A DNA stretch of 64,000 bases from Chloroflexota bacterium (lineage in GTDB: Bacteria > Chloroflexota > Limnocylindria > Limnocylindrales > CSP1-4): NCBI GenBank assembly GCA_947475545.1, contig CANJLL010000002.1, positions 144,950 through 208,949 on the forward strand, read 5' to 3'. Under the pieces are notes generated by a model. It did not search any database, was not told where the DNA came from, and worked only from the letters and a program-made list of their open reading frames with translations. A program made the position numbers and the translations under genes. Positions 9,370-26,177 of the stretch are shown in pieces. The first letter of the stretch is position 1. Every line of letters begins with the position of its first letter.

Positions 9370-10407
9370 ATGACGATCACCAAGTCGGGAAGAGGACGTC
9401 CCAGCCGGGCGTACGTCCTCGCCCAGGTCGACATCGGGATGCAGGATCTCGCGCGAGCCGGAGGGCTCCCAAGCCCAACCGAGAACGAGCAGATCTGGCG
9501 TGACATCTGGTTCGAGGAGGCTCACCACAGCACGGCCATCGAAGGCAACACCCTCGTGCTGAAGGAGGTCCGAACCCTCCTCGCCGAGGGTCGGTCCGTC
9601 GGGAACAAGGAGCTCTGCGAGTACCTCGACGTTCAAGGCTATGCCAGGGCGGCCGAATGGGTCTACTCGCAGGCCTTGGGACCGGGTGACGCGGCGTGGG
9701 AGGGCAGGGGGCGCATCTCCCGAACGGAGCTCCGCGAGATCCATCGCCTGGCCGTTGGCCTTTCCTGGGACGTCTGTCCGCCGGACCACCCGCCACTCGA
9801 TCCGCGCGAGCGGGCCGGCAGCTGGCGCGTCCACGACATCGCGGCGTTCGCCGATGGCATGGTCCCACCGCCCTGGACGGAGGTGGACGCCCGGGTCTCG
9901 GACCGGCTCGCCGCCATCGATGCGGGACCCGGTGAGGGCGAGCACATCCTCGTCCACCTCGCGCGGATGCACAACGGGTTCGAGCGCATCCACCCGTTCC
10001 GCGACGGCAATGGGCGCGCCGGACGCCTGGTCCTGAACCTGCTGCTGGTTCGGGCAGGCTACCCGCCCACGGTCGTGCGCAAGGCCGGGCGGACTCGCTA
10101 CCTGCTCGCCATGCGCAGGGCCGACCGGGATGATCCCGGGCCGCTCGCCGAGCTGATCGCCCGCGGCGTCAAGGAGAGCCTGGACCGGTTCCTCCTCCCC
10201 AACCTGGCTGGGCCCGTGAAGCTGCTACCCCTGTCGGCACTCGAACGTCCCGGCCTGACGGTGAGGGGCCTTCGTTCCGCCGCCGAAAAGGGCACGCTGC
10301 GCGCGCAGCGTGACGGCGCCGGGCGGTGGATGAGCAGCGCCCGCTGGATCGACGAGTACCGCGCGGCCAGGCGAATGGGACGCCCGCCGAAGGCGCCCGA
10401 GGCATGA
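9370..10407 (+). CDS. Fic-family protein (Fic_N IEGN motif + HPFRDGNGRAGR core)
   Basis: ATG at 9370 (MTITKSGRGRP...). Its stop overlaps the next gene's ATG (ATGA). Confidence 0.8.
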   Translation: MTITKSGRGRPSRAYVLAQVDIGMQDLARAGGLPSPTENEQIWRDIWFEEAHHSTAIEGNTLVLKEVRTLLAEGRSVGNKELCEYLDVQGYARAAEWVYSQALGPGDAAWEGRGRISRTELREIHRLAVGLSWDVCPPDHPPLDPRERAGSWRVHDIAAFADGMVPPPWTEVDARVSDRLAAIDAGPGEGEHILVHLARMHNGFERIHPFRDGNGRAGRLVLNLLLVRAGYPPTVVRKAGRTRYLLAMRRADRDDPGPLAELIARGVKESLDRFLLPNLAGPVKLLPLSALERPGLTVRGLRSAAEKGTLRAQRDGAGRWMSSARWIDEYRAARRMGRPPKAPEA

Positions 10408-13687: not shown

Positions 13688-14191
13688 CTACATCGACGTG
13701 GGTAGCTTCCCCTGGATGCCCAGCACCTTCTTGCCCAGGCGATGCGCGAAGTCACTGGTCTGGCCGTACATCAGCGGGCAGGCGCCGGCGATGCAGTCCA
13801 TCCCGGCCTCCTTGCAGGCCGTGTGGGCTTCGTCCGTGAGCGAGCCCTCGCCGAACGAGTCGTGCATCCAGACCCGGGTGATCCCCAGGTGCCAGCACTC
13901 CGCGACCACCGCCGCGGTCCGAGCCTTGGGCGTGGCGATGACCACCGCGTCGACGCCATCGGGGATGGCCGACAGGTTGGGGTAGCAGGCGTCGCCGTCG
14001 ATGCTGAAGGAGACGGGGTTGACGGCGAAGACCTCGTAGCCGCGCTCCTTGAGGCGGCCGTAGATCATGTTGGCGCCGTGCTTCCCCACGCCCTCGCGCG
14101 AGACGCCGGCGATGGCGATGCGCCTCTGGGCCAGGAAGTCATTGATGGCCTGGTCGACGCTGAGCTTTGGCTTCTGCGTGAGCGGCGGCAT
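13688..14191 (-). CDS. CoA-binding domain protein (YccU-like)
   Basis: IAIAGVSRE..KHGANMI...GYEVFAVNP; the fold is typical of PF13380. Confidence 0.8.
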   Translation of the reverse strand: MPPLTQKPKLSVDQAINDFLAQRRIAIAGVSREGVGKHGANMIYGRLKERGYEVFAVNPVSFSIDGDACYPNLSAIPDGVDAVVIATPKARTAAVVAECWHLGITRVWMHDSFGEGSLTDEAHTACKEAGMDCIAGACPLMYGQTSDFAHRLGKKVLGIQGKLPTSM

Positions 14192-14812
14192 GGGGACCTA
14201 CCTCGCTGACCCGGGCTGCGCCGTAGCTCCCGCAACCCGCGGACTCCTGTCCGCCCACGGTACGCCTTCCCCCGCCATGACGGGCCAGTGCCCAAGTACC
14301 CATGCCGCGGGGGCCGGATGGACGGGTTACGGGACCGCGCCACGCGGGATCGGGCCGGCGGCGCCTTGCGGCGGCGGATCTTCCGGCCGACCCGAGGCGC
14401 CAGGCAGGTTGGCGCATCGGGATGTTCCCCCCGGATACAACCTGACGAGAATCGCGCTACCGATCGGGCTTCGGGGTCGACATTTGCCGGGTCGACCCCC
14501 CAACTCCGGTGATTCTGTACCGGCAAGGAACCAATTCGGCGATTTCTGGCCTCTTGGGCCTGCCAGTGGGGGAATCAACGACAGGTTGTCCTCCACGGGA
14601 ACATCCGTCGGGCCGGACGGCCCGGACGGGGTCCGCGTGGCCCGGCTCCGCATGGCAAGTGCCACGGACCCGCTCCGCATGGCCCGCGTCGGCGGGGGCC
14701 CGATCGCGAAGCGCGCGACGGAGCATCGGGCCGAACGCCAACGGCATCGGGCGGGCGCTGGTACTTCCGGGTCGTGGTGCGGATTGCGGCGGACTGCGAC
14801 GGTCCGGGTGCG
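14192..14812 (+). promoter_or_regulatory. long (~620 bp) non-coding leader upstream of a secreted peptidase gene, a candidate structured cis-regulatory RNA
   Basis: No credible ORF. It holds a perfect 9-bp palindrome GGGGTCGAC-N9-GTCGACCCC (~14470-14505) and G-rich blocks (GGGGGAATCA, CCACGGGAAC, CCGGACGGGGTCC). Confidence 0.35.
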
Positions 14813-16354
14813 ATGTTTCCCGGCCGTCACCCCAGCCCCAGCCGGTTGGCGGCCTCTCCAGACAACGTACGCCGAGGTCCCCGCTTGCCCCAGTTCGCGC
14901 CCAGGCGCGCCCGTGGCCTCACGCGCGCACGCGCCGTCGTCCTGGTGGCGGCATCGATGCTCGCCCTGCTCACACCCTCGGCCGCCTCCGCCGCCTCCCC
15001 GCAGCCGTTCCCCGGCTACCAGCCCGCCTTCGTGACCGAGCGCGAAGACGGGCCCTGGCGGGACTGCGTCTGGGCGTCCGCCGCGATGCTCCTGGACAAG
15101 TGGACGAGCGGGGAGACGATCGTCAGCCGCCAGCGGCTCCGGGCCCTGTCCGGCGATGGTCAGGGCGGCTCGGGCCTCAGGGAGGTGCGGGCCGCGTTTG
15201 CGCGGCTGGGATTCCGCCTCACGATCTCGCCGTACGACAGCGTGGCCATCGACTGGCCCGATCTCCTGGATCGCCTTGCCGCGGGCGGCGGGGCGATCCT
15301 GCTGGGCGACGACGGCCTGCTGCCGGCCCAGTTCGGCCGGTGGGATCCCGTCTTCTGGGGCCGAACCGGCGACCTGGACGACCATGCGCTCTACCTGGAC
15401 GGCTACGACCGGGAGACCGGCAGGATCCTGGTCATGGACCCGCTGGCTCCCGCCGACTGGGGCGGTGAATGGATCCCCGTCTCGGCGCTCAAGCGGTTTG
15501 CCTGGCGGAACGGCAACGGCGCCCTCTCGGTGGCCATCACGCCGCCCGCGCTGACATCGTCGTTCCAGGGCGTCACGCTGGGGGCCCCAACGGCCACAGC
15601 CGATGCCGCCGCGGTGCATCTGGCGTGGCCGATCGGGGCCGCTCCCGCCGGGTGGACCGACCAGGGCACCAGGCTCACCACGCAGATCGTGCCGGTCGAG
15701 GTCATGGACCCGCTGGCCTGGATCGTGAGGGCGCTCCCCGCGAACGCCGCCGCCCGTCTGCGGGCGGACGCCGTCATGTCCAGTGCCGACGGGTTGCTCA
15801 GGGCTTCGATCCCGCTGCCGGCGGCGTCGGGGATCTACAGCGTCTCCGTCTCGCTGGCGGATCAGGTCCTGGGCCAGCTGGTGGCCGCCGCCGGGCCGTT
15901 CAACCTGTATTTCCCCGGCCCGCGAGCGGCCGCCTACGAGATCCCCGACCGCGTCGTGGCCGCCGCCGGGTCGCTGGCGTATATCCCCGTCAGGGTCACC
16001 AATGCGGGCAGCGAATCATGGGCGGAAGTGCCGTTCGTTCCCTGGCTGTCACCCGTCGACCAGGGCTGTCGGAACATGCGGCTGACCGGTAGCTGGGTGC
16101 GCGATCCGTCCACGACGCCCGCGGGCGCCGCCTTGCCAAGGCCGCCCGCGTCCTTCGACCTGGGCGCCCTCCACCTGGAAGCCGGCGACTCGAAGACGAT
16201 CGATGCCGCCGTCCGAATGCCGGTGAACGCGGGCTCCTGGCGGCTGGTCTTCGACCTGGTCGACGACCTTGGCCAATCGCTGGCGGTCACGGGCTCGGCG
16301 CCCGGGGTGATCATCGTGGAGACGGTTGGGCCAGGGCCGGTGGGCGGGCAGTAG
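14813..16354 (+). CDS. secreted protein with N-terminal papain-fold (C39/NlpC-like) cysteine peptidase-like domain
   Basis: Signal peptide ...RARAVVLVAASMLALLTPSAASAAS. Candidate catalytic Cys (WRDCVWASAAMLL) and His (DDHALYLDGYD). The start could be a downstream TTG. Confidence 0.6.
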   Translation: MFPGRHPSPSRLAASPDNVRRGPRLPQFAPRRARGLTRARAVVLVAASMLALLTPSAASAASPQPFPGYQPAFVTEREDGPWRDCVWASAAMLLDKWTSGETIVSRQRLRALSGDGQGGSGLREVRAAFARLGFRLTISPYDSVAIDWPDLLDRLAAGGGAILLGDDGLLPAQFGRWDPVFWGRTGDLDDHALYLDGYDRETGRILVMDPLAPADWGGEWIPVSALKRFAWRNGNGALSVAITPPALTSSFQGVTLGAPTATADAAAVHLAWPIGAAPAGWTDQGTRLTTQIVPVEVMDPLAWIVRALPANAAARLRADAVMSSADGLLRASIPLPAASGIYSVSVSLADQVLGQLVAAAGPFNLYFPGPRAAAYEIPDRVVAAAGSLAYIPVRVTNAGSESWAEVPFVPWLSPVDQGCRNMRLTGSWVRDPSTTPAGAALPRPPASFDLGALHLEAGDSKTIDAAVRMPVNAGSWRLVFDLVDDLGQSLAVTGSAPGVIIVETVGPGPVGGQ

Positions 16355-16358
16355 GGAT

Positions 16359-17087
16359 CTAACCCGCTGTGATTGGTTTGAGGACGAAGACTATGGCCCT
16401 GTACTCGCGACCGTCTTTGACAGTCCGCTCAGCCTCATGCCTGAGATACTCAAACCGACCACCGTAGCGGTAGACCTCGCCGAGCTTCTGGAAGAGGTGC
16501 AGTCGGGGACTTCGGTCAATCACGGCTCGGTTGTGGGCCGTCAAGACCATGTCTCCCTCACCGCTCCACGCGCCGTAGTAGCGGTACAACCCAGCCTCCC
16601 AGCGGTCTCGGTATCCATGCTCGTGGGCGGCATTGGGGTCAGAAAAGAGCATGGTGAAGGCGGCGCCGGCTGGAGAACTGATTCCCGTCTGGCGATTGCC
16701 ACCGAACCGATCATGTAGGTGCGTCCGCCGATATGTGTCACCAACAACGAGCGCGCCTTCGGGATCCGCGAGCGGCCCGTCATGGGCCACAACGCGTGGC
16801 TTTCGTTTGTCGGGCCGGGTCGGCGCCCCCAGCTGACCCAGAACGGCCTCCAGGTCGCGTTCAACCTGTGACGATAGGGGCGATCGAAGGGCTGCTCGTA
16901 GGCAACGGACCGCCTCGACGCCTGCTCCGAATTCGGCGGTGCGCGCGATTGTTCGGACGGCGAACGCCGCCATGACCGGATCTCGCAGCCAAGGTTCCAG
17001 CGCGGCGATCGCTGCCGCGCCATGTTTGGCAATGGGGTCACGAAACTCAATCCTCACGGCCGGAGGAGATTCGGTCGCACCAACCAT
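16359..17087 (-). CDS. SRA/YDG-like (PUA-superfamily) modified-base reader domain protein
   Basis: C-terminal half: VGDTYRRTHLHDRFGGNRQTGIS...YRDRWEAGLYRYYGAWSGEG...YRYGGRFEYLRHE...YRAIVFVLKP, matching SRA hallmarks. ATG at 17087, 38 nt after the upstream helicase stop. Confidence 0.6.
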   Translation of the reverse strand: MVGATESPPAVRIEFRDPIAKHGAAAIAALEPWLRDPVMAAFAVRTIARTAEFGAGVEAVRCLRAALRSPLSSQVERDLEAVLGQLGAPTRPDKRKPRVVAHDGPLADPEGALVVGDTYRRTHLHDRFGGNRQTGISSPAGAAFTMLFSDPNAAHEHGYRDRWEAGLYRYYGAWSGEGDMVLTAHNRAVIDRSPRLHLFQKLGEVYRYGGRFEYLRHEAERTVKDGREYRAIVFVLKPITAG

Positions 17088-17125
17088 CGCCTGGTGAAGC
17101 GTTAGGTCACTCGGATCGATTGGCA

Positions 17126-19036
17126 CTAGTCGAGCTCCCGGAAGCCCGACGCGACGAGGAACTCGTAGGTTTCGTCCCACAGTGGCGCCGGCGGGACGAA
17201 CACGACGTTTGCGTCTCGAGCCCTGGTGAGCAGCACGCGGTAGGCATTGACTCTCAGCTGGCGAGCATCACGGATCCGCTGCGGTTGCTGGTACCGCTTC
17301 GCTCGGCTCGTGTCCCAGCGGCCGCCCTTACGGATGAAGTCGGCGCCCCATGCGACGAGAGCGGCGTCGAGCTCTAGGCCCTGAGCTCCGAATTCGGTAA
17401 CGCAAGTTCGAAGTGCGCGGCATGACCGACCGAGGTAGTCGGCATCGCCCTCGACGTACCACGGGCCATATTCAAAGCGCTGAAACCGACCCTGGCTCTG
17501 GTTAGGAATGCCGAAGCGGAACAACTCCTTGTCGCGCGCACTCGCCACAATCCCAAACCTGGCGTCAGGATCACCATCGTATCGACCTCGCAGATACGCC
17601 TTCGCTTGATCGAGATCTCGCGTCACCCGGAGGTGGTGCCCCTGGCCTTCGAGGCGGCGTGCGAGGTCCCCAAGATCCTCGGCGGCCTCGTCGCCGACAA
17701 GGGTCCCGACGAAGCGATCGATCTCAGTGGCCAGATGAAAGCGGATCGCCACGTCGAGGTGCAAGGCGGACGACCTGTGAAATGAGCCATACCCGTCAAA
17801 TGTCACCGCGACCTGAGAAGGTCCGTGGACGGTCCAACCTCCCCCCGATCCATCGACCGCAGCGCGCCATTGGCGGAGTCCGCCCTCCTCACCAATGTGG
17901 ATCTCCTGGCCCTGGCCGATGAGACCGATGACGACGCACCAACCCGGAACCCGCTCGGCGAACTCAAGGAAGTGTTCGGGTTCCGATCGGCCATCTCCGC
18001 GCCCACCATGCTTCTCCGCGACCTGGGCGGCGTCCCACGCCCGTTGTGCCTCGTCGTAGATCAGGACGTGCTCGCCCGGGATCAGGGATGGATTCCGTGT
18101 ATAGCGCTCCACGTAGTCCTTGACGCCGCGGACGAAGGCCTTACCCCCGCCCCCAGAGCCGCGAAACTCGTATTGGAGAACTTCCACGAGGGGGCCGTTG
18201 CCCGACAGGTATACGCCGGGTGGCAGCTTCCGGCCATCCTGCCGTGCGACGGCGAGGTCGTCGAGGTACCGGGCATGGGCCACCTGGAGGCCGACGAGCG
18301 TCTTCCCGGCTCCAGGAACTCCGGTGAGGAGGATCAGGCGACGGGTCCCCGTCGCCGCGGCCTCGTGGATGATTCGATTGACTTCGTCCAGAGCCGGCTT
18401 GGTGTTCATCGCCGCGCGGTGAACACGCCGCAACGTCCCGCTGTCAAACAGCTCACGCGCCGCTTCGACGATGGTTGGCAGAGGAGAGTAGGCCTCGGCC
18501 GCAAGGAACCGCTCGGGATCGATCGGAGGAAGCTGGCCTCGATCGATCTCATCGACCAGCCCATCGATGGCGTCGAGGCCCACGACTTGAACGCCGGCGA
18601 TCTCCCCCATGCGCCCAGATGCGCGAGTCAGGACCAGCACGGGGTGCACGGCCCGGTTGTGGCACTCCGCGTGATAGGCCAGCAGGTCCCGCGCATAACC
18701 GGCGGCTTGATCGACGTCGGCGAGAATTGCTGCTCCCTTGCCCTTGACCTCCAGAACGAGCACGGCACCCGACGCAAGAAAGATCACGTCCGGCCGTCGT
18801 CGCTCCATCGGCAGCTCGTACTCAAGAATGGCGGAGTAGTCGGCGGACGGCGCATATCTGGCCATCACCTCGCTTACTTCGCGCTGCAGTGGAGAAATGG
18901 AGTCATCCCAGGCCCGAATCTGCTCGGGCGAGGCGTCACGGATGAATTGCTCAAGCGAGCCGCGAATCACAACTGGCGACGTTGCCCGAAACTCTTGCCA
19001 TGGGGACGCCCAGCCATAGCGAGCTACCTCGGTCAT
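17126..19036 (-). CDS. NERD-domain + DUF2075 (P-loop SF1-like helicase) protein
   Basis: N-terminal NERD (PDVIFLASGAVLVLEVKGK), Walker A LLTGVPGAGKT, DEAQ box LIYDEAQRAW, C-terminal LLTRARDANVVFV. ATG at 19036 with GGAGGAG SD. Confidence 0.8.
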   Translation of the reverse strand: MTEVARYGWASPWQEFRATSPVVIRGSLEQFIRDASPEQIRAWDDSISPLQREVSEVMARYAPSADYSAILEYELPMERRRPDVIFLASGAVLVLEVKGKGAAILADVDQAAGYARDLLAYHAECHNRAVHPVLVLTRASGRMGEIAGVQVVGLDAIDGLVDEIDRGQLPPIDPERFLAAEAYSPLPTIVEAARELFDSGTLRRVHRAAMNTKPALDEVNRIIHEAAATGTRRLILLTGVPGAGKTLVGLQVAHARYLDDLAVARQDGRKLPPGVYLSGNGPLVEVLQYEFRGSGGGGKAFVRGVKDYVERYTRNPSLIPGEHVLIYDEAQRAWDAAQVAEKHGGRGDGRSEPEHFLEFAERVPGWCVVIGLIGQGQEIHIGEEGGLRQWRAAVDGSGGGWTVHGPSQVAVTFDGYGSFHRSSALHLDVAIRFHLATEIDRFVGTLVGDEAAEDLGDLARRLEGQGHHLRVTRDLDQAKAYLRGRYDGDPDARFGIVASARDKELFRFGIPNQSQGRFQRFEYGPWYVEGDADYLGRSCRALRTCVTEFGAQGLELDAALVAWGADFIRKGGRWDTSRAKRYQQPQRIRDARQLRVNAYRVLLTRARDANVVFVPPAPLWDETYEFLVASGFRELD

Positions 19037-19091
19037 GGCTCCTCCTCTTCGTCCCGACTCGTCTGAGTTTCGACCGCACCGAAGGTAACCC

Positions 19092-21317
19092 GTGGCGCAA
19101 GCCCGGAGTGTCCCAACCCGTCAGTCATCTGACCAGGCGCCGGCTGGCACGTCGGCGCCGTCCGGCCTGTTCTCGGACGGCCACCCCGTACTGATCCCGC
19201 TGGCCGTGTCAGGCGAGGTGGCACCTGCTGGCCGCAGACTACCGCGCATGGAAGCCGTGGAGCCCGAGACAGACAAGCGCCTCCAGGCCCTGCTGGAGCA
19301 GATGTTCGGCCCACAGGCTGAGTTTCGGCCGGGCCAGCTGGAGGCCATCCAGGCCGTCCTTGATGGGTCGCGCACCCTCGTCGTCCAGCGGACCGGATGG
19401 GGGAAGAGCCTGGTCTACTGGCTGGCCACGCGGATGCTGCGCGACCAGGGCCGGGGGCCCACCCTGGTGATCAGCCCGCTGCTGTCGCTGATGCGCAACC
19501 AGATCGACGGGGCCACGGCCCTTGGCCTCCGCGCGGTGACCATCAACTCCGCCAATCGGGCCGAATGGGATGACGCCCGGGCGGCGCTGGAGGCGGGCGG
19601 TGTCGACGCCCTCCTGATCTCGCCGGAACGGCTGGGGAATGAGCGGTTCACCACGGAGATCCTGCCGTCGATTCCGGGCGGGATCGGCCTTGTCGTGATC
19701 GACGAGGCGCACTGCATCTCCGACTGGGGCCACGACTTCCGGCCCGACTATCGGCGGATCCAGCGCATCATCAACAACCTGCCGCCCAACGTGCCGCTCC
19801 TCGCCACCACGGCGACGGCCAACGACCGTGTGGTCGCGGACGTCATCGAGCAGCTGGGTGGTGATGTGGTGACCCTGCGGGGTCCGCTCGCCCGCGCCTC
19901 GCTGCGTCTCCAGGCGATCTACCTGCGCGACGGCGCCGAACGGCTGGCGTGGCTGGCGGAACACCTCCCGGGCCTGCCGGGCAGCGGCATCGTGTACTGC
20001 CTCACCATCGCGGACACGGAGCGGGTCGCCGAGTGGCTCCGACTGAACGGGGTGGACGCGGCGGCCTACCACGCCAGGGTGGAGCCGGATCGGCGGGTGG
20101 AGCTGGAAGGCCGCCTCCTCCGGAACGACCTCAAGGTCCTCGTCGCCAGCACCGCCCTGGGCATGGGCTTTGACAAGCCGGACCTGGGCTTCGTCATCCA
20201 CTACCAGCGACCCGGTTCCGTCATCGCGTACTACCAGCAGGTGGGCCGCGCCGGGCGCGCCATCGACACCGCGTACGGGGTGCTGCTGAGCGGCCGCGAG
20301 GACGACGAGATCAACGACTACTTCATCCAGAGCGCGTTCCCGCCCGAGGCGGACATGCGCGCGGTCCTGGCGGCCCTGGAGCGCGTCGAGACAGCCACGG
20401 TGCCGGCGCTGGAGTCGCGGCTCAACATCCGGCGCAGCCGGATCCAGCACATCCTCAAGCTCCTGGAGCTGGACGGCGCGGTTGGCCGCGAGGGATCCAG
20501 CGTCTTCCGAACGCCCAACCCCTGGCTGCCCGACACCGAGCGGATGGAACGCGTCACCGCCCGCCGACGCGAGGAGCTGGCGCACCTTCGCGCGTACATG
20601 ACCCACGACGGCTGCCTGATGGCCTATCTGACGTCGGCACTCGACGATCCCAGCCAGGCGCCGTGTGGGCGCTGCGCCCCGGAGACCGGACAGCTGCTCC
20701 CGGTCACGCCCAATCCGGCCATGATCCAGCGGGCCATCGGCTTCCTGCGCGGCGCATGGCGCGGCATCGAGCCGCGGCTCCAGTGGCCGCCCGGGGCGCT
20801 GGCCGGGCACAGCGGCCGGATCACGCCGCCGAACGAGCCGGGCCTGGCGCTCTCGTTGTACGGCGACGCGGGCTGGGGCAGGCTGGTCGCCGACGGCAAG
20901 TACCGCGACGAGCGGTTCGACCAGGCGCTGGTGGAGGCGTCGGCCCAGATGATCCGGGCGCGCGGCCTGGTGCCGGCGCCGGCCTGGGTCACGGCGATCG
21001 CGTCCTTGCGGCGGCCAGGCCTGGTCCCCGATTTCGCCCGGCGGCTGGCCGAAGCGCTTGGGCTTCCGTTTCACGACGTGCTGGCGGCCGCCAATACCCG
21101 GCCCCAGAGGGAGATGGAGAACAGCGGGGCGCAGCTCAGGAACGTGGCCGGCATGACCGTGGCCGGCGCCTGTCCGACGGGCCCCGTCCTGCTGGTCGAT
21201 GACGTCGTGGACTCGCGCTGGACGCTGACGTACGGCGGTTGGCTGCTGCGCCAGCACGGTGCGGGTCCGGTCCACCCGTTTGCGCTCGCGATGGCCACGC
21301 CGCAGGATGACGGCTGA
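19092..21317 (+). CDS. RecQ-family helicase fused to C-terminal ComF/type-I PRTase-like domain
   Basis: RecQ motifs TGWGKSLVY, VIDEAHCISDWGHDFRPDY, ATATA and a Zn-finger C..C..C..C. The C-terminal ~150 aa carry a PRTase loop VLLVDDVVDSRWTLT. GTG at 19092 (GAAGG SD) or ATG at 19248. Confidence 0.8.
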   Translation: MAQARSVPTRQSSDQAPAGTSAPSGLFSDGHPVLIPLAVSGEVAPAGRRLPRMEAVEPETDKRLQALLEQMFGPQAEFRPGQLEAIQAVLDGSRTLVVQRTGWGKSLVYWLATRMLRDQGRGPTLVISPLLSLMRNQIDGATALGLRAVTINSANRAEWDDARAALEAGGVDALLISPERLGNERFTTEILPSIPGGIGLVVIDEAHCISDWGHDFRPDYRRIQRIINNLPPNVPLLATTATANDRVVADVIEQLGGDVVTLRGPLARASLRLQAIYLRDGAERLAWLAEHLPGLPGSGIVYCLTIADTERVAEWLRLNGVDAAAYHARVEPDRRVELEGRLLRNDLKVLVASTALGMGFDKPDLGFVIHYQRPGSVIAYYQQVGRAGRAIDTAYGVLLSGREDDEINDYFIQSAFPPEADMRAVLAALERVETATVPALESRLNIRRSRIQHILKLLELDGAVGREGSSVFRTPNPWLPDTERMERVTARRREELAHLRAYMTHDGCLMAYLTSALDDPSQAPCGRCAPETGQLLPVTPNPAMIQRAIGFLRGAWRGIEPRLQWPPGALAGHSGRITPPNEPGLALSLYGDAGWGRLVADGKYRDERFDQALVEASAQMIRARGLVPAPAWVTAIASLRRPGLVPDFARRLAEALGLPFHDVLAAANTRPQREMENSGAQLRNVAGMTVAGACPTGPVLLVDDVVDSRWTLTYGGWLLRQHGAGPVHPFALAMATPQDDG

Positions 21318-22387
21318 TGACCATCCACCATCAGCTGGGCGCCAACGGACTGGCCATCCTCGCCCTCACGGCTCGAGGCGGCGCCGGGCGGCGGGCCGGG
21401 ATCGGCGCGGGGTCCCGGGTCGGGCAGGCGGATCTCCCTGCGCCGCTTCGATCGCGGGAGTGGGCGCACCTCGCGCGAAGCCTCGCCCTTGCGGGCGCGC
21501 AGCCGGCCGACCTGCTCGGCTGGAGCTCGGCGGAGATCGCCGCGGCCCTTGGTACAACCCCGGCCGCCAGCGACGAGCTGGCACGCCTGGCCAGCCGGGC
21601 ATCAACGCTGGCCCTGGACGTGGAGCGACTGGGCAGCCGCGGGATCTGGCTCCTGAGCGTGGACGACTCCGCCTACCCGGGGCGGCTGCTCGCGCGCCTC
21701 GGCGACCTGGCGCCGCCAATCCTGTATGGATCGGGCGCACTCGAGGTCCTGGGCCGCGGGGGCATCGCGATCGTCGGCTCGAGGGATGCGGACACCGACG
21801 CGCTGGCGTTCGCGTCGGCCGCCGCCGCCGCAGCCGCCGGGGCAGGCCGCTCCGTCGTGTCCGGCGGGGCGCAAGGCATCGATGTCGCCGCGATGTCTGC
21901 CGCCGCGGCGGCGGGCGGTTTGGTGGTGGGCGTGCTCGCCGAGAGCCTGGAACGGCGGATCCGGGCGGTGGAGACGCGGGCGCTCATCGCGGAGGAGCGA
22001 CTGGCCCTGGTCTCACCGTACGGTGCCGACGTGTCGTTCTCCATTGGGAATGCCATGGGCCGCAACCGGCTGATCTACTGCCTCGCGGATGCGGCGATCG
22101 TGGCGGCAGCGGCCGAAGGCGAAGGGGGAACCTGGGCCGGCGCCACGGAGGCGCTCGACGCGCGATGGGTGCCCGTCTACGTCCGCGTCTCCGCCTCGGC
22201 GCCGTCGGGGAACCGGGCCCTTGCGGATCGTGGCGCCATCCCATTCGCGTCGGACGCGGCGGCGACTGGCGGCCTGCCGTTCGCGGGCGACGACCCGGCG
22301 GGCGCGGCGCTCCCGGCGTCGTCCGTCTCCCCGGCACCGCCCAAGCGGGCGGCCGAGCAGCAGACGCTCTTTGGTGGCGACCGGTAG
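21317..22387 (+). CDS. DprA/Smf-like (SLOG Rossmann) protein
   Basis: GIAIVGSRDADTDALAFA...VVSGGAQGIDVAA...NRLIYCLADAAIV. The ATG overlaps the RecQ-PRTase stop (TGATG). Confidence 0.8.
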   Translation: MTIHHQLGANGLAILALTARGGAGRRAGIGAGSRVGQADLPAPLRSREWAHLARSLALAGAQPADLLGWSSAEIAAALGTTPAASDELARLASRASTLALDVERLGSRGIWLLSVDDSAYPGRLLARLGDLAPPILYGSGALEVLGRGGIAIVGSRDADTDALAFASAAAAAAAGAGRSVVSGGAQGIDVAAMSAAAAAGGLVVGVLAESLERRIRAVETRALIAEERLALVSPYGADVSFSIGNAMGRNRLIYCLADAAIVAAAAEGEGGTWAGATEALDARWVPVYVRVSASAPSGNRALADRGAIPFASDAAATGGLPFAGDDPAGAALPASSVSPAPPKRAAEQQTLFGGDR

Positions 22388-22496
22388 ACCTGGTAACGGG
22401 GAGGCCTGCCGACGGCGTCGCCGAGCTGAGCCCGGCAGCCCGCGCCAGGCGGGCTTCATTGGTTGACTTCTACCCAGTCATGGGTAGACTTCTACC

Positions 22497-22745
22497 GTGA
22501 CCCTCAACATCAAGAATCCGGAGACCACGCGGCTCATCCGCGAGCTCGCGCAGGCCACCGGGGAGTCGCTGACACAGGCCCTGACCACGGCGGTCCGGGA
22601 GCGCCTGGGTCGCGTACGCGCGCAGGCCCAGCCGGACGACGTCTGGGCCATCGTGGACGAGATCCGGTCGCGGCTGCCCGCCGGCTACCTGGACCAGGAT
22701 TTCGACGGCCTGCTCTACGACGAGACGACGGGGCTCCCCAGGTGA
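22497..22745 (+). CDS. vapB: type II antitoxin, VapB-like (Rv0623-type MTLNIKNPE...)
   Basis: GTG at 22497. 82 aa. Its stop overlaps the toxin start (GTGA). Confidence 0.75.
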   Translation: MTLNIKNPETTRLIRELAQATGESLTQALTTAVRERLGRVRAQAQPDDVWAIVDEIRSRLPAGYLDQDFDGLLYDETTGLPR

Positions 22746-23182
22746 TCGTGGACACGTCGGCGCTGGTCGCGATCCTGCGTCGGGAGGCGGACGCGCCCGC
22801 CATCCTCCAAGCGCTGCGGTCCCTCAGCCCGCGACGGATGTCGGCCGGGACCTACCTTGAGCTGGGGCTCGTCATCGACGGGGCGCGGGATCCGACGGCA
22901 TCGACGCTGCTGGACGACCTGATCGAGGCGTTGGACATCACCATCGAGCCGGTCACGGCGGCCCAGGCCCGCATCGCTCGCGGCGCGCACCAGGAGTTCG
23001 GCCGCGGGAGCGGCCATCCCGCCGGCCTCAACTTTGGGGATTGCTTCGCCTACGCGCTGGCCAAGGATCTCGACGAGCCGCTGCTCTTCAAGGGCGACGA
23101 CTTCGCCCAGACGGATATCCCCTTCGTGGGCCGGCGCCAGGAGCGCGGGCGCCTTCGCGAGCTCCTCGCCGCGTACGGCTGA
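22742..23182 (+). CDS. vapC: PIN-domain toxin VapC
   Basis: VIVDTSALVAIL...LNFGDCFAYALA. Lies in the frame of ORF 22463..23182. Confidence 0.75.
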   Translation: MIVDTSALVAILRREADAPAILQALRSLSPRRMSAGTYLELGLVIDGARDPTASTLLDDLIEALDITIEPVTAAQARIARGAHQEFGRGSGHPAGLNFGDCFAYALAKDLDEPLLFKGDDFAQTDIPFVGRRQERGRLRELLAAYG

Positions 23183-23222
23183 CGGCGCGGCACCGACCGA
23201 TCGAGGGCCGTCCTGGCTTCTG

Positions 23223-23272
23223 AACTGCTAAGTTGGCACGAATTGGCACTCGATTAGCAGTTGCCCTCGGCC
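23223..23272. terminator. bidirectional hairpin between convergent genes (9-bp arms AACTGCTAA/TTAGCAGTT; the loop holds a TTGGCAC direct repeat)
   Basis: Direct reading between the vapC end (23182) and the convergent HD gene. There is no U-run, so it may instead be a protein-binding site. Confidence 0.4.
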
Positions 23273-23409
23273 GCGGTCAGGCGCCCGCTGCTGGTCTGCC
23301 ATCACGCCCCCGCCAGCCGCTCCATCTCCCCCACCACCCGATCCAGCTCGGCGATCAGGTCCGTGGGCGCGGCCGGGTTCGCCTGGAACGCCGTCACCAG
23401 CGAGCGGTA

Positions 23410-23907
23410 CTACCAGATTGGGTCCGAATCCGGGTTGAAGCGCCCGAACATCGACGGCCCGTGCCGGCGGAGGTCCGCGACGATGCTGCGGGCGTTGTGG
23501 AGCTTGTCCGAGGCCGAGACCAGCAGCACCGCGGCGTCCGCGTGGGCCAGGTGGGCGATGTAGGCCTCCTTGCGCGGCGGCCAAGGCGGCTTCGACTCCT
23601 CGTGGGCATCCGTGCAGGCCAGGACCAGCCGGAGGACTTCGGAGCCGAAGGCCGCCACCGTCTCCCGCGCGCCGGGCGCGTAGTGGACGTCCTCGATGGC
23701 GTCGTGCAGGACGGCCGCGATGGCCTGGTCCTCGTTGGCCCCGTAGTCCAGGGCGATGCTGCACGTCCCCAGCAGGTGCGACGCGTAGGGAATGGTGGTC
23801 CCCTTGCGCAGCTGGGCGGCGTGCATCTCCAGGGCCACGCTCACGGCGCGCACGAACCGCGGGGTGTACGCCCACGGCTCCGCCGGGATCGGATGCCCGG
23901 CTGTCAT
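23410..23907 (-). CDS. HD-domain phosphohydrolase, ending at an in-frame TAG. The same frame continues for 32 more codons to 23313.
   Basis: HD motifs HLLGTCSIALDYG...LHDAIED...DKLHN. After the TAG the frame reads YRSLVTAFQANPAAPTDLIAELDRVVGEMERLAGA, then TGA at 23313. Confidence 0.7.
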   Translation of the reverse strand: MTAGHPIPAEPWAYTPRFVRAVSVALEMHAAQLRKGTTIPYASHLLGTCSIALDYGANEDQAIAAVLHDAIEDVHYAPGARETVAAFGSEVLRLVLACTDAHEESKPPWPPRKEAYIAHLAHADAAVLLVSASDKLHNARSIVADLRRHGPSMFGRFNPDSDPIW

Positions 23908-23917
23908 CGGCTCACCA

Positions 23918-23952
23918 TTGACGCATCTGGTGTCGGAATTCATACTCTCTTT
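23918..23952 (+). promoter_or_regulatory. sigma70-like promoter (TTGACG-17-CATACT) for the AbrB-type antitoxin operon, with an ATGCAT-centred imperfect palindrome downstream
   Basis: Direct reading ttgacgcatctggtgtcggaattcatact. AT-rich for this genome. Confidence 0.45.
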
Positions 23953-23980
23953 AACTCAGTATGCATATTGGAGATTGGGT

Positions 23981-24262
23981 ATGGGCAGCCGCGTTGGCGA
24001 GCGGGGCCAGGTGACCATCGAGAAGGCCATCCGGGAGCAGCTGGGCGTGTACGCCGGCGACCAGGCCGTCCAGCGGGTGGAGGACGGCCGCGTCGTGATC
24101 GAGTTCATCCCGGCACCACACGACCGAAGCCTGCTGGGTGTCCTGAAGGACAAGGTCCGGCGCTGGCCGGAGGACGAAAGCGACTTCGCGGCGATCCGCG
24201 AGTCGGCCTGGGAGACGCCCGATCCGGATCGGCTGCCACCCGTTGACGATCGGTCCGCATGA
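23981..24262 (+). CDS. AbrB/MazE/SpoVT-family antitoxin
   Basis: GQVTIEKAIREQLGVYAGDQAV...GRVVIEF. GGAGA SD. The stop overlaps the toxin ATG (ATGA). Confidence 0.75.
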   Translation: MGSRVGERGQVTIEKAIREQLGVYAGDQAVQRVEDGRVVIEFIPAPHDRSLLGVLKDKVRRWPEDESDFAAIRESAWETPDPDRLPPVDDRSA

Positions 24263-24654
24263 TCGCGCTCGATACCTCGGTCATCGTCCGGTACCTGGTC
24301 CAGTCGCCGCCCGAGCCCGCCCGGCGCGCCGGCGAGCTGCTGGATGGTGGCGGGGAGATCGGGATCCCGGTGGTGGTGCTGCTGGAGACCGCGCACGTGC
24401 TCCGCACGATCTACGCGGTCCCGCGACCGGACGTCGCCACCGTGCTCATCGAGCTGCTGACGCGACGGAACGTGCGGCTCCTCGGCCTGGGCGTCGACGA
24501 TGCGATCGACGCCCTGGTGCGAGCCCGGGCCCTGCCGGGGACGCCGATCGCCGACGCGCTCATCGTGGCCATGGCCAAGGCCGCCGGAGCGCGGCCGCTG
24601 TACACGTTCGACCTGGGGCTCGCGCGCCACGGGATCGAGATCGCCGTTCCGTGA
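24259..24654 (+). CDS. vapC: PIN-domain toxin VapC
   Basis: MIALDTSVIVRYL...LLETAHVL...ADALIVAMA. Confidence 0.8.
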   Translation: MIALDTSVIVRYLVQSPPEPARRAGELLDGGGEIGIPVVVLLETAHVLRTIYAVPRPDVATVLIELLTRRNVRLLGLGVDDAIDALVRARALPGTPIADALIVAMAKAAGARPLYTFDLGLARHGIEIAVP

Positions 24655-24694
24655 CGTTCCGCTGGTCTTGACCGCGCCCGTGGGACGTCCTACC

Positions 24695-25024
24695 ATGCGT
24701 CCTACCATGTCAGAGACTTCTTCCTACCTCGCCACCGGCGTCGCGGAGGCGGTGACCCCGTACGGCGCGGATGGCTCGGGCGCCCCGCACACCAAGTTGT
24801 CCATCAGCCTGCCATCGGACCTGGTGGCCGTGATCCGCCAGGTCTCGGAGCAGACCGGGCTGACGATGAGCGCCACCATCGGTGCCTGCGTTCGCCGGAC
24901 GCTGGCCCTGGTGGAGCAGGAGCGCCTGGACCGCGCATTGGAGCTGGACGCGGAGGAGAACCTGGCGTGGGCGGGTGCGCATCTGCCCGCCGCGGCGCGG
25001 CTCTGGGAGTCAATCGAGTGGTAG
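24695..25024 (+). CDS. ribbon-helix-helix (CopG-like) antitoxin
   Basis: KLSISLPSDLVAVIRQVSEQTGLTMSATIGACVRRTL. The 12-bp duplication cgtcctaccatg creates two candidate ATGs (24695 and 24707). Confidence 0.6.
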   Translation: MRPTMSETSSYLATGVAEAVTPYGADGSGAPHTKLSISLPSDLVAVIRQVSEQTGLTMSATIGACVRRTLALVEQERLDRALELDAEENLAWAGAHLPAAARLWESIEW

Positions 25025-25392
25025 GGATCGGTCGCGTGCTGCCCCCAGTCGGGCCCCGGCGCGGCGACGTTCACTTCGTGGCCTTCCCGGACCTGGATGG
25101 TCGTGTCATCAGGGGGCCGCATCCCGCAGTAGTGGTCCAGTCGGACCGCCTGGCCCGGTCGGCCACCGTGATCGTGGCACCGCTGACTAGCGCCCCCCGC
25201 TCCGCCCCTGAACGTCCCCCGTACCTGGTGCCGCTGGCGGCCCGCGAGGCGGACCTGCCCCGGGATGGCTTCATCAAGTGCGACCAGCTGACCACGCTCC
25301 CGGTCTCCCTCCTGGGTCCCCGGGTTGGTCGGCTCAACCCCGAGGCCATGGGCCGGCTGGACGCCGCCCTGCGGTTCGTCCTGGCGCTCTGA
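25018..25392 (+). CDS. mazF: MazF/PemK-family toxin
   Basis: RRGDVHFVAFP...HPAVVVQSD...TVIVAPLTS...GFIKCDQLTTL. The GTG overlaps the antitoxin stop. Confidence 0.7.
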   Translation: MVGIGRVLPPVGPRRGDVHFVAFPDLDGRVIRGPHPAVVVQSDRLARSATVIVAPLTSAPRSAPERPPYLVPLAAREADLPRDGFIKCDQLTTLPVSLLGPRVGRLNPEAMGRLDAALRFVLAL

Positions 25393-25415
25393 TCGGGCCG
25401 CCCGGCGGCTGAGGG

Positions 25416-25832
25416 CTATGCGGCGCCTCCGGGCCGCGCGTTCGGCACCGTCGCGAATCCCGCCGTCCGGAAGTCCGCGTCCAGCGCGATCGCCCGATCG
25501 ATGCCCTCCCGCCGCATGCAGGCGAAGCTGGTCCGGTCGACCAGGGAGACGGAGGATTCGACCGTGTCTCGAAAGGCGGTCAAGGCCGCGGCATGGAGCT
25601 CCGCGTCCACCGGCATGACCTCCAGGGCAGGAAGCACGTGGTCGATGATGCCGGCGGCCGTCGCCGCGCCAAAGCGCCGGCGGGCCACCGCGAGGGTCTC
25701 AACCACGACGTAGGCGTGTGTCACGAGGCGCTCCGTGTGGCCGGCGGCGAAGGCCGCCACGACGCCCTCGTGCGCCGGGTCGTCGCGGTCCACCAGCGCC
25801 AGAATGCCGCTGGTGTCGACGAACAGGGTCAC
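25416..25832 (-). CDS. vapC: PIN-domain toxin VapC
   Basis: MTLFVDTSGILALVDRDDPAH...VVVETLAV...DRTSFACM. Confidence 0.8.
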   Translation of the reverse strand: MTLFVDTSGILALVDRDDPAHEGVVAAFAAGHTERLVTHAYVVVETLAVARRRFGAATAAGIIDHVLPALEVMPVDAELHAAALTAFRDTVESSVSLVDRTSFACMRREGIDRAIALDADFRTAGFATVPNARPGGAA

Positions 25833-26071
25833 CAGCGATCCCCGCTCAGGACCTCATCGTGATCGCGCGCGACGGTGCCGGTTCCGGACGCCGCGGTGCC
25901 GGCCACCGACAGCAGCCCCTCCATCCGGGCCGCGCGCTCGGCGTCCTGGGTGGGCACCACCTGGTCCACCGCGTCGCGGATGACCGCGGCCAGCGACACG
26001 TGACGGCGGCGAGCCTCACGGCGGAGGCGCTCCATCTGCTCCTCGGTCAGCGAGACCTGCGTCCTGATCAT
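25829..26071 (-). CDS. ribbon-helix-helix antitoxin (VapB/CopG-like)
   Basis: MIRTQVSLTEEQMERLRREARRRHVSLAAVIRDAV. Overlaps the vapC start (ATGA). Confidence 0.7.
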   Translation of the reverse strand: MIRTQVSLTEEQMERLRREARRRHVSLAAVIRDAVDQVVPTQDAERAARMEGLLSVAGTAASGTGTVARDHDEVLSGDRW

Positions 26072-26177
26072 GGGCGGGATGATAACAGTAGCGCTCCTGA
26101 TGATGTAACCCTTGCCTTCCGCTGGCCGACGCGCTCGCGCCATCCGGGCCCAGCCCGACCGGTCATACCCCCATGTA

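What the first reader, a model, noticed from the sequence alone, without database searches (positions are those of the whole stretch)
19092..22387. RecQ helicase fused to a PRTase domain, translationally coupled to a DprA-like gene: a hybrid of the PsyrTA and ShosTA anti-phage toxin-antitoxin architectures
One 741-aa polypeptide carries a complete RecQ core (Walker A TGWGKS, DEAH box VIDEAHCISDWGHDFRPDY, ATATA, Zn-binding C-x-C-x-C-x-C). It ends in a ComF/type-I PRTase-like domain whose PRPP loop is degenerate (VLLVDDVVDSRWTLT instead of ...TTGxT). The next gene starts 1 nt inside its stop (TGATG) and encodes a full DprA/Smf Rossmann (SLOG) protein. As I recall the literature, PsyrTA pairs a RecQ-like toxin with a DprA-like antitoxin, and ShosTA pairs a PRTase toxin with a DprA-like antitoxin. 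Here both toxin domain types sit in one protein next to the shared antitoxin type, which I have not seen described. The context (SRA/NERD helicase operon on one side, four TA pairs on the other) supports a conflict role. The alternative is a competence-style ComFA/ComFC plus DprA DNA-processing pair.
Basis: partly seen in the sequence, partly recalled or inferred. Interest (0 to 1): 0.85.

Follow-up and report, generated by a model that had tools for sequence, protein, structure and literature searches.

The report
Ordinary PsyrTA (RqlHI) toxin-antitoxin defence pair

Summary
Two + strand genes overlap by one base (TGATG). [quoted passage not shown] The other encodes a DprA-like protein.

The interpretation, an undescribed PsyrT x ShosT hybrid, does not hold.
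- The helicase matches the PADLOC PsyrT model end to end (877 bits, profile 5-688 of 689).
- Its C-terminal domain alone matches positions 490-688 of that model and no ShosT model.
- The partner matches PsyrA (307 bits).
- This domain order was defined for M. smegmatis RqlH in 2012. In 2015 the PRTase domain was shown to be needed for E. coli RqlH toxicity and for binding RqlI. In 2022 PsyrTA (also called RqlHI) was reported as a phage defence whose toxin contains a PRTase domain.
- The window protein is 48% identical end to end to E. coli RqlH and keeps all three mutated residues (K49, D148, D663).
- The "degenerate" PRPP loop is the family consensus.

The pair is accessory and mobile. It occurs across many phyla, in about a third of complete E. 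coli genomes and on plasmids, with unrelated flanks.

Two small deviations: the zinc motif has three cysteines rather than four, and the antitoxin lacks the C-terminal extension of E. coli RqlI.

Verdict: already known, low interest.

The parts
19248..21317 (+). psyrT / rqlH: 689-aa RecQ-like helicase with a PRTase-like tail, the toxin component. The longest ORF starts at a GTG at 19092 (741 aa), but the ATG at 19248 is the likely start.
   Evidence: PADLOC PsyrT PDLC03928: E 1.8e-264, 877 bits, profile positions 5-688 of 689. NCBIfam recQ_fam scores 255 bits against a cut-off of 219.8, while the RecQ equivalog scores 291 against 640. 48% identity end to end to E. coli RqlH. A 98%-identical 689-aa protein is in NCBI.
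19284..20285 (+). RecQ-like SF2 ATPase core, about residues 13-346. It carries Walker A TGWGKS (K53), DEAH (D152), ATTATA and the QQVGRAGR arginine finger.
   Evidence: Pfam DEAD and Helicase_C. PDB RecQ 4tmu and 1oyw at E 1e-61 and 2e-60 over residues 13-338. K53 and D152 align with E. coli RqlH K49 and D148.
20286..20567 (+). RqlH-specific linker of about 90 aa between the ATPase and zinc modules, with weak winged-helix-like signals.
   Evidence: Weak MarR_2 (E 4e-4), TrmB and DprA_WH hits at residues 414-470 of the 741-aa reading. 11 of the 56 sequences scanned hit MarR_2. The linker is described for M. smegmatis RqlH.
20568..20702 (+). RecQ-type zinc-binding module with only three cysteines (C456, C473, C476). 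The fourth position is Glu479.
   Evidence: Alignment of 73 homologues. Cysteine positions. None of the 120 closest homologues has the fourth Cys; it is E or D in 75 and R in 26.
20715..21314 (+). ComF/PRTase-like C-terminal domain, residues 490-689. In E. coli RqlH this is the toxicity-determining and RqlI-binding domain.
   Evidence: PADLOC PsyrT positions 490-688, E 2.4e-51, with no ShosT hit. PF00156 at E 0.002 here, and in 48 of the 56 sequences scanned. AF2 pLDDT 92.9. Foldseek top hit is ComF 7p0h at E 1.4e-5, then APRT, OPRT and PurF, with ShosT 8zvd at rank 22.
21186..21230 (+). PRPP-loop motif VLLVDDVVDSRWTLT (residues 647-661). D652 aligns with E. coli RqlH D663.
   Evidence: The family consensus LL.DD..DS.WT.T is conserved at 80% or more. 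E. coli reads VLLVDDIVDSGWTLT. D663A and DIVD663EVME abolish RqlH toxicity (PMC4670107).
21315..21319 (+). TGATG stop/start overlap of one base. This gene arrangement allows translational coupling.
   Evidence: The same junction occurs in the 95%-identical copy L083. The E. coli loci have a 4-nt overlap.
21317..22387 (+). psyrA / rqlI: 356-aa DprA-like (SLOG/Rossmann) antitoxin component. Its Ala/Pro-rich tail from about residue 316 has no counterpart of the C-terminal extension of E. coli RqlI.
   Evidence: PADLOC PsyrA PDLC03927: E 4.4e-92, 307 bits, against 83 bits for ShosA. Pfam DNA_processg_A 8.6e-33. The dprA equivalog TIGR00732 scores 81 bits against a cut-off of 191. 36% identity to E. 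coli RqlI over residues 43-314.
16357..19176 (-). Context, not part of the pair: a lower-GC cassette holding a 636-aa Schlafen-group-3 helicase (17126-19036, PADLOC PDC-S41) and a 273-aa ORF with no family hit (16359-17180). It is transcribed divergently from psyrT.
   Evidence: Pfam SLFN-g3_helicase 1.8e-52. PDC-S41 at 3e-124. GC is 0.64 against about 0.72 elsewhere. A different gene occupies this position in the 95%-identical locus L083.
22497..26143 (.). Context, not part of the pair: a run of TA modules. Rv0623-like antitoxin plus PIN (22497-23182, +); HD_4 protein (23410-23943, -); MazE-like plus PIN (23792-24654, +); PemK/MazF (24967-25392, +); RHH plus PIN (25416-26143, -).
   Evidence: Pfam hits.

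Best explanation
The locus is a canonical two-gene PsyrTA (also called RqlHI) module.

Shown here:
- psyrT/rqlH (19248-21317) encodes a RecQ-like helicase with the RqlH domain order: ATPase, linker, RecQ-type zinc module, ComF/PRTase-like C-domain, and no HRDC domain.
- psyrA/rqlI (21317-22387) starts inside the psyrT stop codon and encodes a DprA-like SLOG protein.

Taken from published work on homologues:
- In E. coli, RqlH expressed without RqlI is genotoxic, causing SOS induction, filamentation and mutagenesis. This requires the PRTase-domain acidic motif (D663).
- RqlI binds RqlH through that domain and neutralises it.
- PsyrTA protects against phages.

Inferred for this locus: in uninfected cells PsyrA holds the PRTase-like domain of PsyrT in check. 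Phage infection, by an unknown trigger, releases or overrides that control. The toxin then damages DNA or blocks replication, so the infection aborts.

The chemistry of the PRTase-like domain is unknown for the whole family. The closest lead is ShosT, where PRPP binding is required for toxicity.
For: - PADLOC: PsyrT 877 bits over profile positions 5-688 of 689, and PsyrA 307 bits.
- The C-domain alone matches PsyrT positions 490-688 at E 2.4e-51.
- The domain order is identical to published RqlH, and Pfam gives no HRDC hit at E <= 1.
- 48% identity end to end to E. coli RqlH, with K53, D152 and D652 aligned to the experimentally mutated K49, D148 and D663.
- The partner is 36% identical to E. 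coli RqlI.
- The C-domain has a ComF/PRTase fold: pLDDT 92.9, Foldseek top hit 7p0h followed by type I PRTases.
- The DprA-like gene lies immediately downstream on the same strand in 68 of 75 related loci that have room for it, across many phyla.
- Flanks are not conserved: no flank family is shared by more than 4 of 80 loci.
- The pair is accessory: 1756 of 5426 complete E. coli genomes match the Pseudomonas pair used as query, all eight listed matches are annotated as this gene pair, and the two loci examined lie in a tRNA-Thr integrase island and inside a type I R-M operon.
- 12 plasmids carry a full-length helicase homologue.
- A 95%-identical copy in another genome has different cassettes on both sides.
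- The window neighbourhood is rich in TA modules and defence candidates.
- Literature for toxicity, neutralisation and phage defence.
Against: - No experiment exists for this particular pair. Toxicity, neutralisation and defence are transferred from homologues at 48% and 36% identity.
- The zinc motif has three cysteines instead of four.
- The antitoxin lacks the roughly 130-aa C-terminal part of E. coli RqlI. That part includes the HTH domain, which was reported dispensable for neutralisation.
- Pfam PF00156 is below its gathering score for this sequence alone.
- Ordonez et al. raised a DNA-repair role for RqlH in mycobacteria that lack RecQ. Whether this genome has a classical RecQ or DprA cannot be seen from a 64-kb window; none is in the window.
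Confidence: 0.85

Rival explanations
1. One reading: a new hybrid in which a ShosT-type PRTase toxin domain has been fused onto a PsyrT-type RecQ toxin, next to the shared DprA-like antitoxin.
For: Both domain types are present in one polypeptide. ShosT (8zvd) appears among the structural matches at rank 22. ShosA is a secondary hit for the partner at 83 bits.
Against: The fusion is the defining architecture of RqlH/PsyrT and has been in print since 2012. The PADLOC PsyrT profile already covers the C-domain. The C-domain gives no ShosT hit at E <= 10. E. coli RqlH aligns end to end.
Confidence: 0.02
2. A housekeeping DNA-repair, recombination or competence-style DNA-processing pair. RqlH would stand in for RecQ, and the DprA-like partner would load RecA or protect ssDNA, comparable to ComFA/ComFC plus DprA, with no conflict role.
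For: M. smegmatis RqlH is a genuine 3'-5' helicase, and the mycobacteria that have it lack RecQ. The best structural match of the C-domain is ComF. The partner has the DprA fold. No other recQ or dprA homologue is in the window.
Against: The partner scores far below the dprA equivalog cut-off (81 against 191 bits) and far better on PsyrA. The pair is patchy and accessory, present on plasmids and integrative islands with unrelated flanks. A 95%-identical copy sits between different cassettes. E. coli RqlH is genotoxic unless RqlI restrains it, and PsyrTA defends against phage. The local context is TA modules and a defence candidate.
Confidence: 0.08
3. A decaying or functionally altered copy. 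Loss of the fourth zinc cysteine and of the antitoxin C-terminal extension would mean the module is inactive or regulated differently.
For: There are three cysteines rather than four. PsyrA is 356 aa against 441 aa for E. coli RqlI, and the PsyrA profile is matched only over positions 22-298 of 398.
Against: Both ORFs are intact with coding-type third-position GC. All helicase motifs and the PRTase acidic motif are conserved. The three-cysteine state is shared by all 120 closest homologues, so it is a stable clade trait and not decay. Another subclade has no cysteines at all there. The HTH part of RqlI was dispensable for neutralisation. The 95%-identical copy keeps the same lengths of 689 and 356 aa.
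Confidence: 0.05

Closest known systems
PsyrTA / RqlHI (P. syringae PsyrTA, Sberro et al. 2013; E. coli RqlH-RqlI, Russell & Mulvey 2015; anti-phage activity, Millman et al. 2022)
   Same: Same two-gene order with overlapping stop and start. The toxin has the same domain order end to end: 48% identity to E. coli RqlH, full-length PADLOC PsyrT match, and K49, D148 and D663 all conserved. The antitoxin is the same DprA-like type (PsyrA 307 bits, 36% identity to RqlI). The distribution is likewise accessory and mobile.
   Different: The zinc motif has three cysteines plus Glu instead of four cysteines. The antitoxin lacks the roughly 130-aa C-terminal extension, including the HTH domain, of E. 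coli RqlI. The host is high-GC. There are no experimental data for this copy.
Mycobacterium smegmatis RqlH (MSMEG_5935; Ordonez, Unciuleac & Shuman 2012)
   Same: 689 aa against 691 aa. RecQ-like ATPase, about 90-aa linker, RecQ-type zinc module, ComF/PRTase-like C-domain and no HRDC domain. [quoted passage not shown]
   Different: M. smegmatis RqlH is described as tetracysteine. That paper treated the protein as a repair-type helicase and did not discuss a partner.
ShosTA (Kimelman et al. 2012; Rousset et al. 2022; structures 2025-2026)
   Same: A PRTase-fold toxin domain paired with a DprA-like antitoxin. Toxicity is linked to DNA damage and filamentation. ShosT 8zvd is a structural match (rank 22), and ShosA is a secondary HMM hit at 83 bits.
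   Different: ShosT has no RecQ helicase. Published work describes it as coupling PRTase and pyrophosphatase activities. The window C-domain gives no ShosT HMM hit at E <= 10, and the partner scores much higher on PsyrA than on ShosA.
ComFC/ComF competence proteins (with the ComFA helicase and DprA)
   Same: The best structural neighbour of the C-domain is H. pylori ComF (7p0h, E 1.4e-5, TMq 0.59). A helicase, a PRTase-like domain and a DprA-like protein appear together.
   Different: ComFA is not a RecQ-like helicase and is a separate polypeptide from ComFC. The window partner is not the dprA equivalog. The pair is an accessory island gene pair and not part of a competence regulon.
Classical RecQ (E. 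coli RecQ)
   Same: The ATPase core is homologous (PDB 1oyw and 4tmu at about E 1e-60), and a RecQ-type zinc module follows it.
   Different: It scores below the RecQ equivalog cut-off (291 against 640 bits). There is no HRDC domain, an extra linker separates the ATPase from the zinc module, and a PRTase-like domain forms the C-terminus.

Membership tests
PsyrTA / RqlHI | The toxin matches the curated PsyrT profile over its full length. | tested here: met
   PDLC03928: E 1.8e-264, 877 bits, residues 61-739 of the 741-aa reading against profile positions 5-688 of 689.
PsyrTA / RqlHI | N-terminal RecQ-like SF2 ATPase with helicase motifs, including the Walker A Lys and DEAH Asp that were tested by mutation. 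| tested here: met
   Pfam DEAD and Helicase_C. recQ_fam scores 255 bits against a cut-off of 219.8. PDB RecQ at E 1e-61. K53 and D152 align with E. coli K49 and D148.
PsyrTA / RqlHI | An RqlH-specific linker followed by a tetracysteine RecQ-type zinc module. | tested here: inconclusive
   The linker and the module are present and alignable, but only three cysteines remain (C456, C473, C476) and the fourth position is E479. All 120 closest homologues also lack the fourth Cys, and another subclade of clear family members has no cysteines there. Four cysteines are therefore not universal in the family.
PsyrTA / RqlHI | No HRDC domain. | tested here: met
   No HRDC hit in Pfam at E <= 1. The C-terminal 200 residues are occupied by the PRTase-like domain.
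PsyrTA / RqlHI | C-terminal ComF/PRTase-like domain carrying the acidic PRPP-loop motif required for toxicity (E. coli DIVD663). | tested here: met
   PsyrT profile positions 490-688, E 2.4e-51. PF00156 at E 0.002 here, and in 48 of the 56 sequences scanned. AF2 pLDDT 92.9, with ComF and then type I PRTases as the top folds. VLLVDDVVDSRWTLT aligns with E. coli VLLVDDIVDSGWTLT, and D652 aligns with D663.
PsyrTA / RqlHI | A DprA-like partner gene immediately downstream on the same strand that matches PsyrA. | tested here: met
   PsyrA PDLC03927: E 4.4e-92. One-base overlap. 36% identity to E. coli RqlI. The same adjacency occurs in 68 of 75 related loci.
PsyrTA / RqlHI | The toxin is genotoxic alone, the partner neutralises it by binding, and the pair protects against phage. 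| not testable with these tools
   Known only for homologues. It needs expression and phage-challenge experiments.
ShosTA | The toxin matches a ShosT profile (a PRTase toxin without a helicase). | tested here: not met
   The C-domain alone gives no ShosT hit at E <= 10. No ShosT model is among the 25 listed hits for the full protein. The polypeptide carries a RecQ-like helicase.
ShosTA | The antitoxin matches ShosA best. | tested here: not met
   ShosA scores 83 bits (E 5e-24) against 307 bits for PsyrA.
Canonical DprA/Smf (competence and recombination mediator) | Reaches the dprA equivalog cut-off. | tested here: not met
   TIGR00732 scores 81.2 bits against a cut-off of 191.15. PRK10736 scores 58 against 495.
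Classical RecQ | Reaches the RecQ equivalog cut-off and has an HRDC domain. | tested here: not met
   TIGR01389 scores 291 bits against a cut-off of 640. PRK11057 scores 237 against 1015. No HRDC domain.

The most novel reading that the evidence does not exclude
The window's copy belongs to a sub-clade of PsyrTA in which the RecQ-type zinc site has a Cys3 plus acidic (or Arg) configuration and the antitoxin lacks the C-terminal HTH extension. It also sits at a hotspot where alternative helicase-type defence genes are exchanged directly upstream: a Schlafen-like PDC-S41 gene here, and a PLD-helicase-DUF3427 gene in a 95%-identical locus. If these traits changed how the toxin is sensed or regulated, for example through functional coupling with the neighbouring helicase, this would be a mechanistic variant of PsyrTA.
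Probability: 0.07. Interest if true: 0.35.

Novelty: already known. Interest (0 to 1): 0.1.

Why it matters
For discovery purposes it matters little. Current defence-finder profiles would label this pair PsyrTA automatically, and the RecQ-PRTase plus DprA-like architecture has been in the literature since 2012-2015.

It is still useful as annotation. It marks a defence/TA island in a high-GC genome and adds a member from a sub-clade with a three-cysteine zinc motif and a short antitoxin.

The real open question belongs to the whole family and is not specific to this locus: what the PRTase-like domain of PsyrT/RqlH does chemically, and what phage cue releases it from the DprA-like partner.

Tried and rejected
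1. Testing the C-terminal domain as a ShosT-type module. PADLOC on the domain alone, relaxed to E <= 10, returned only PsyrT and two short DpdF-labelled models, so the hybrid idea was rejected.
2. Looking for a solved PsyrT/RqlH structure. The sequence search of the PDB found only RecQ, BLM, WRN and RECQ1/5 cores covering residues 8-366, and nothing for the C-domain. The fold search then gave ComF and type I PRTases.
3. Literature search for a PsyrTA-specific mechanism paper. None was found beyond Russell & Mulvey 2015 and Millman 2022. The recent structural papers are on ShosTA.
4. Mobile-element hallmarks in the window. No tRNA gene is present, and I did not look for an integrase across the whole window.
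5. Identifying the source organism. The best species-representative genome hit is only 61% identical (a Limnocylindrales MAG). A 98%-identical protein comes from MAG GCA_034420275.1. I did not pursue taxonomy further.
6. Direct alignment to M. smegmatis RqlH.
7. Pfam did not reproduce them at E <= 0.01.

Full report
**1. What is in the sequence**

The window is about 72% GC. Two + strand ORFs occupy 19092..21317 (741 aa from a GTG) and 21317..22387 (356 aa from an ATG). Both show the third-position GC expected of real genes here, 0.90 and 0.87. The stop of the first and the start of the second share one base, TGATG at 21315-21319.

The start of the first gene is more likely the ATG at 19248, giving 689 aa. 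A 98%-identical NCBI protein is 689 aa and covers 100% of the query. The PsyrT profile starts at residue 61 of the long reading.

One stated detail is wrong. The zinc motif has three cysteines, not four: C456-x16-C473-x2-C476-x2-E479.

**2. Family assignment**

- PADLOC places the first protein on PsyrT (PDLC03928) with E 1.8e-264 and 877 bits, aligned over profile positions 5-688 of 689. It places the second on PsyrA (PDLC03927) with E 4.4e-92, and ShosA is a distant second at 83 bits.
- Pfam finds DEAD, Helicase_C and, below threshold, Pribosyltran in the first protein. It finds DNA_processg_A (8.6e-33) in the second.
- NCBIfam puts the helicase in the RecQ family subfamily (255 bits, cut-off 219.8) but far below the RecQ equivalog (291 against 640). 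It puts the partner far below the DprA equivalog (81 against 191).
- PDB sequence matches are RecQ-type cores only, covering residues 8-366.

**3. Is the C-terminal domain a PRTase-like domain, and of which kind?**

- Alone (residues 490-689), it hits PF00156 at E 0.002, which is below the gathering score. 48 of the 56 sequences scanned, which include the window's own segment, hit PF00156 at E <= 0.01.
- An AlphaFold2 model built with 55 homologues is confident: pLDDT 92.9 and pTM 0.89.
- Its best PDB neighbour is H. pylori ComF (7p0h, E 1.4e-5). Adenine and orotate PRTases and PurF follow, and ShosT (8zvd) is at rank 22.
- Against PADLOC, the domain alone matches PsyrT positions 490-688 (E 2.4e-51) and no ShosT model, even at E <= 10.

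It is PsyrT's own C-domain and not an imported ShosT module.

**4. The "degenerate" PRPP loop**

In an alignment of 73 homologues from many phyla, the pattern LL.DD..DS.WT.T is conserved at 80% or more. E. coli RqlH reads VLLVDDIVDSGWTLT at the same position.

This is the motif that Russell & Mulvey mutated (DIVD663EVME and D663A) to abolish RqlH toxicity (PMC4670107). It is therefore a family signature and not local decay.

**5. Literature**

- Ordonez, Unciuleac & Shuman 2012 (PMC3378886) defined RqlH from M. smegmatis. It is 691 aa, with a RecQ-like ATPase at 1-346, a roughly 90-aa linker, a tetracysteine zinc domain at 435-499, no HRDC domain, and a C-domain resembling ComF with a PRTase-like module. 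[quoted passage not shown]
- Russell & Mulvey 2015 showed that E. coli RqlH is genotoxic without RqlI. The toxicity needs the PRTase domain. RqlI is DprA-like and co-immunoprecipitates with RqlH only when that domain is present.
- Millman et al. 2022 (bioRxiv 10.1101/2022.05.11.491447) report PsyrTA, "also called RqlHI", as a phage-defence system. They describe the ShosTA and PsyrTA toxin as containing a PRTase domain and both antitoxins as DprA homologues.
- Iyer et al. 2017 (PMC5512222) also describe the PRTase fused to an SFII helicase and coupled to DprA.

**6. Direct comparison with a characterised member**

A Pseudomonas homologue (L032) was used to find E. coli loci. The SCU-102 protein (L082) has K49, D148 and D663 at exactly the published numbering.

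The window protein aligns to it end to end at 48% identity, residues 13-687 against 8-698. K53, D152 and D652 fall at those three positions.

The partner is 36% identical to E. coli RqlI over residues 43-314 and lacks its roughly 130-aa C-terminal extension. The HTH part of RqlI was reported dispensable for neutralisation.

**7. Distribution and mobility**

Nearly all of the 120 listed are about 685 aa and cover 97-100% of the query, and many carry PF00156.
- At least 596 species-representative genomes encode relatives. They include Chloroflexota, Actinomycetota, Cyanobacteria, Pseudomonadota, Bacillota, Bacteroidota and Verrucomicrobiota.
- In 68 of 75 loci with room, the DprA-like gene lies immediately downstream on the same strand. 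No flanking ORF family is shared by more than 4 of 80 loci.
- In E. coli, 1756 of 5426 complete genomes match the Pseudomonas pair used as query, and all eight listed matches are annotated as this gene pair. In one strain it lies in a tRNA-Thr integrase island. In another it lies between hsdS and hsdR of a type I R-M operon.
- Twelve plasmids carry full-length helicase homologues, including haloarchaeal ones.
- A 95%-identical copy in MAG GCA_034420275.1 (L083) shares window 13758-16356 and 19177-22409. Between these blocks it has a PLD-helicase-DUF3427 gene where the window has its lower-GC 16357-19176 cassette. Downstream it has a PhdYefM/PIN pair in place of the window's Rv0623-like/PIN pair.

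This is an accessory module in a variable island, so the "housekeeping sole dprA" alternative is unlikely.

**8. Local context**

- Upstream and divergent lies a 636-aa Schlafen-group-3 helicase that matches the PADLOC candidate PDC-S41 over its full length. A 273-aa ORF with no family hit sits beside it.
- Downstream are an Rv0623-like antitoxin with PIN, an HD_4 protein, a MazE-like protein with PIN, a PemK/MazF toxin and an RHH protein with PIN.
- Further upstream are a Fic protein (a modest SoFic match) and a class III cyclase with weak PycC similarity.

**9. Mechanism**

Shown here:
- identity of architecture, conserved catalytic and toxicity residues, and the gene overlap;
- conserved pairing of the two genes across phyla;
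- accessory distribution.

Taken from the literature on homologues:
- 3'-5' helicase activity;
- PRTase-dependent genotoxicity;
- neutralisation by direct binding of the DprA-like partner;
- phage defence.

Inferred for this locus: PsyrA restrains PsyrT until infection, and the released toxin then damages DNA or blocks replication and aborts the infection. The trigger and the chemistry of the PRTase-like domain are unknown for the whole family. For ShosT, PRPP binding is required for toxicity.

**10. Verdict**

- The conflict-system reading is supported. The novelty claim is not.
- This is a standard PsyrTA/RqlHI pair, so it is already known and of low interest.
- The only deviations are a clade-wide three-cysteine zinc motif and a short antitoxin.

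Noticed in passing
window 16357-19176, compared with L083 2544-5787: There is a cassette swap directly upstream of psyrT. The window and a 90-95% identical locus (GCA_034420275.1) share both flanks: window 13758-16356 and 19177-22409. Between them the window has a lower-GC (0.64) Schlafen-like helicase (PDC-S41) plus a 273-aa ORF with no family hit, whereas L083 has a 1034-aa PLDc_2-DEAD-Helicase_C-DUF3427 gene. Downstream of psyrA the TA pair also differs: Rv0623-like/PIN in the window and PhdYefM/PIN in L083. This looks like a defence-gene exchange hotspot.
   Followed up: partly
window 20613-20687 (residues 456-479 of the 689-aa protein): The RecQ-type zinc motif has three cysteines and a Glu at the fourth position (CGRCAPE against the consensus CGRCxxC). 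None of the 120 closest homologues has the fourth Cys; it is E or D in 75 and R in 26. A separate subclade (for example L033, L035, L042, L043) has no cysteines at all in this module.
   Followed up: partly
window 22262-22387 (PsyrA residues 316-356): PsyrA ends in a short Ala/Pro-rich tail. It lacks the roughly 130-aa C-terminal extension, including the HTH region, of E. coli RqlI (441 aa). Only positions 22-298 of the 398-position PsyrA profile are matched.
   Followed up: partly
L084 4791-13735 (GCA_038914485.1, 72% identical PsyrT): A Schlafen-group-3 helicase again lies upstream of psyrT, as in the window, with an IS (rve) in between. An IS21-like element (Mu-transposase_C plus IstB) is inserted between psyrT and the DprA-like gene and separates the toxin from the antitoxin. 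The recurrence of the SLFN-like helicase next to PsyrTA may or may not be meaningful.
   Followed up: no
L081 2640-12719 (E. coli strain 2/0): In this E. coli strain the RecQ-like/DprA-like pair is nested inside a type I restriction-modification operon, between hsdS and hsdR. In strain SCU-102 (L082) it lies instead in a tRNA-Thr integrase island next to a GTP pyrophosphokinase gene and a SLATT gene.
   Followed up: no
window 9034-11648: A 457-aa Fic-domain protein (PADLOC SoFic 7.9e-21, PDC-S04 1.2e-22) overlaps the start of a 440-aa class III adenylate/guanylate cyclase that has weak similarity to Pycsar cyclases (PycC 6.8e-17). Whether these form a defence module was not examined.
   Followed up: no
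plasmid hits H12-H14: Full-length PsyrT homologues at 46-47% identity are encoded on plasmids of the haloarchaea Halomicrobium salinisoli and Halanaeroarchaeum sulfurireducens, so the module crosses the bacteria/archaea boundary.
   Followed up: no
window 20286-20567 (linker between the ATPase and zinc modules): The "RqlH-specific linker" gives weak winged-helix signals: MarR_2 at E 4e-4, plus TrmB and DprA_WH. 11 of the 56 sequences scanned also hit MarR_2. It may be a displaced or inserted winged-helix domain. No model was built for it.
   Followed up: no
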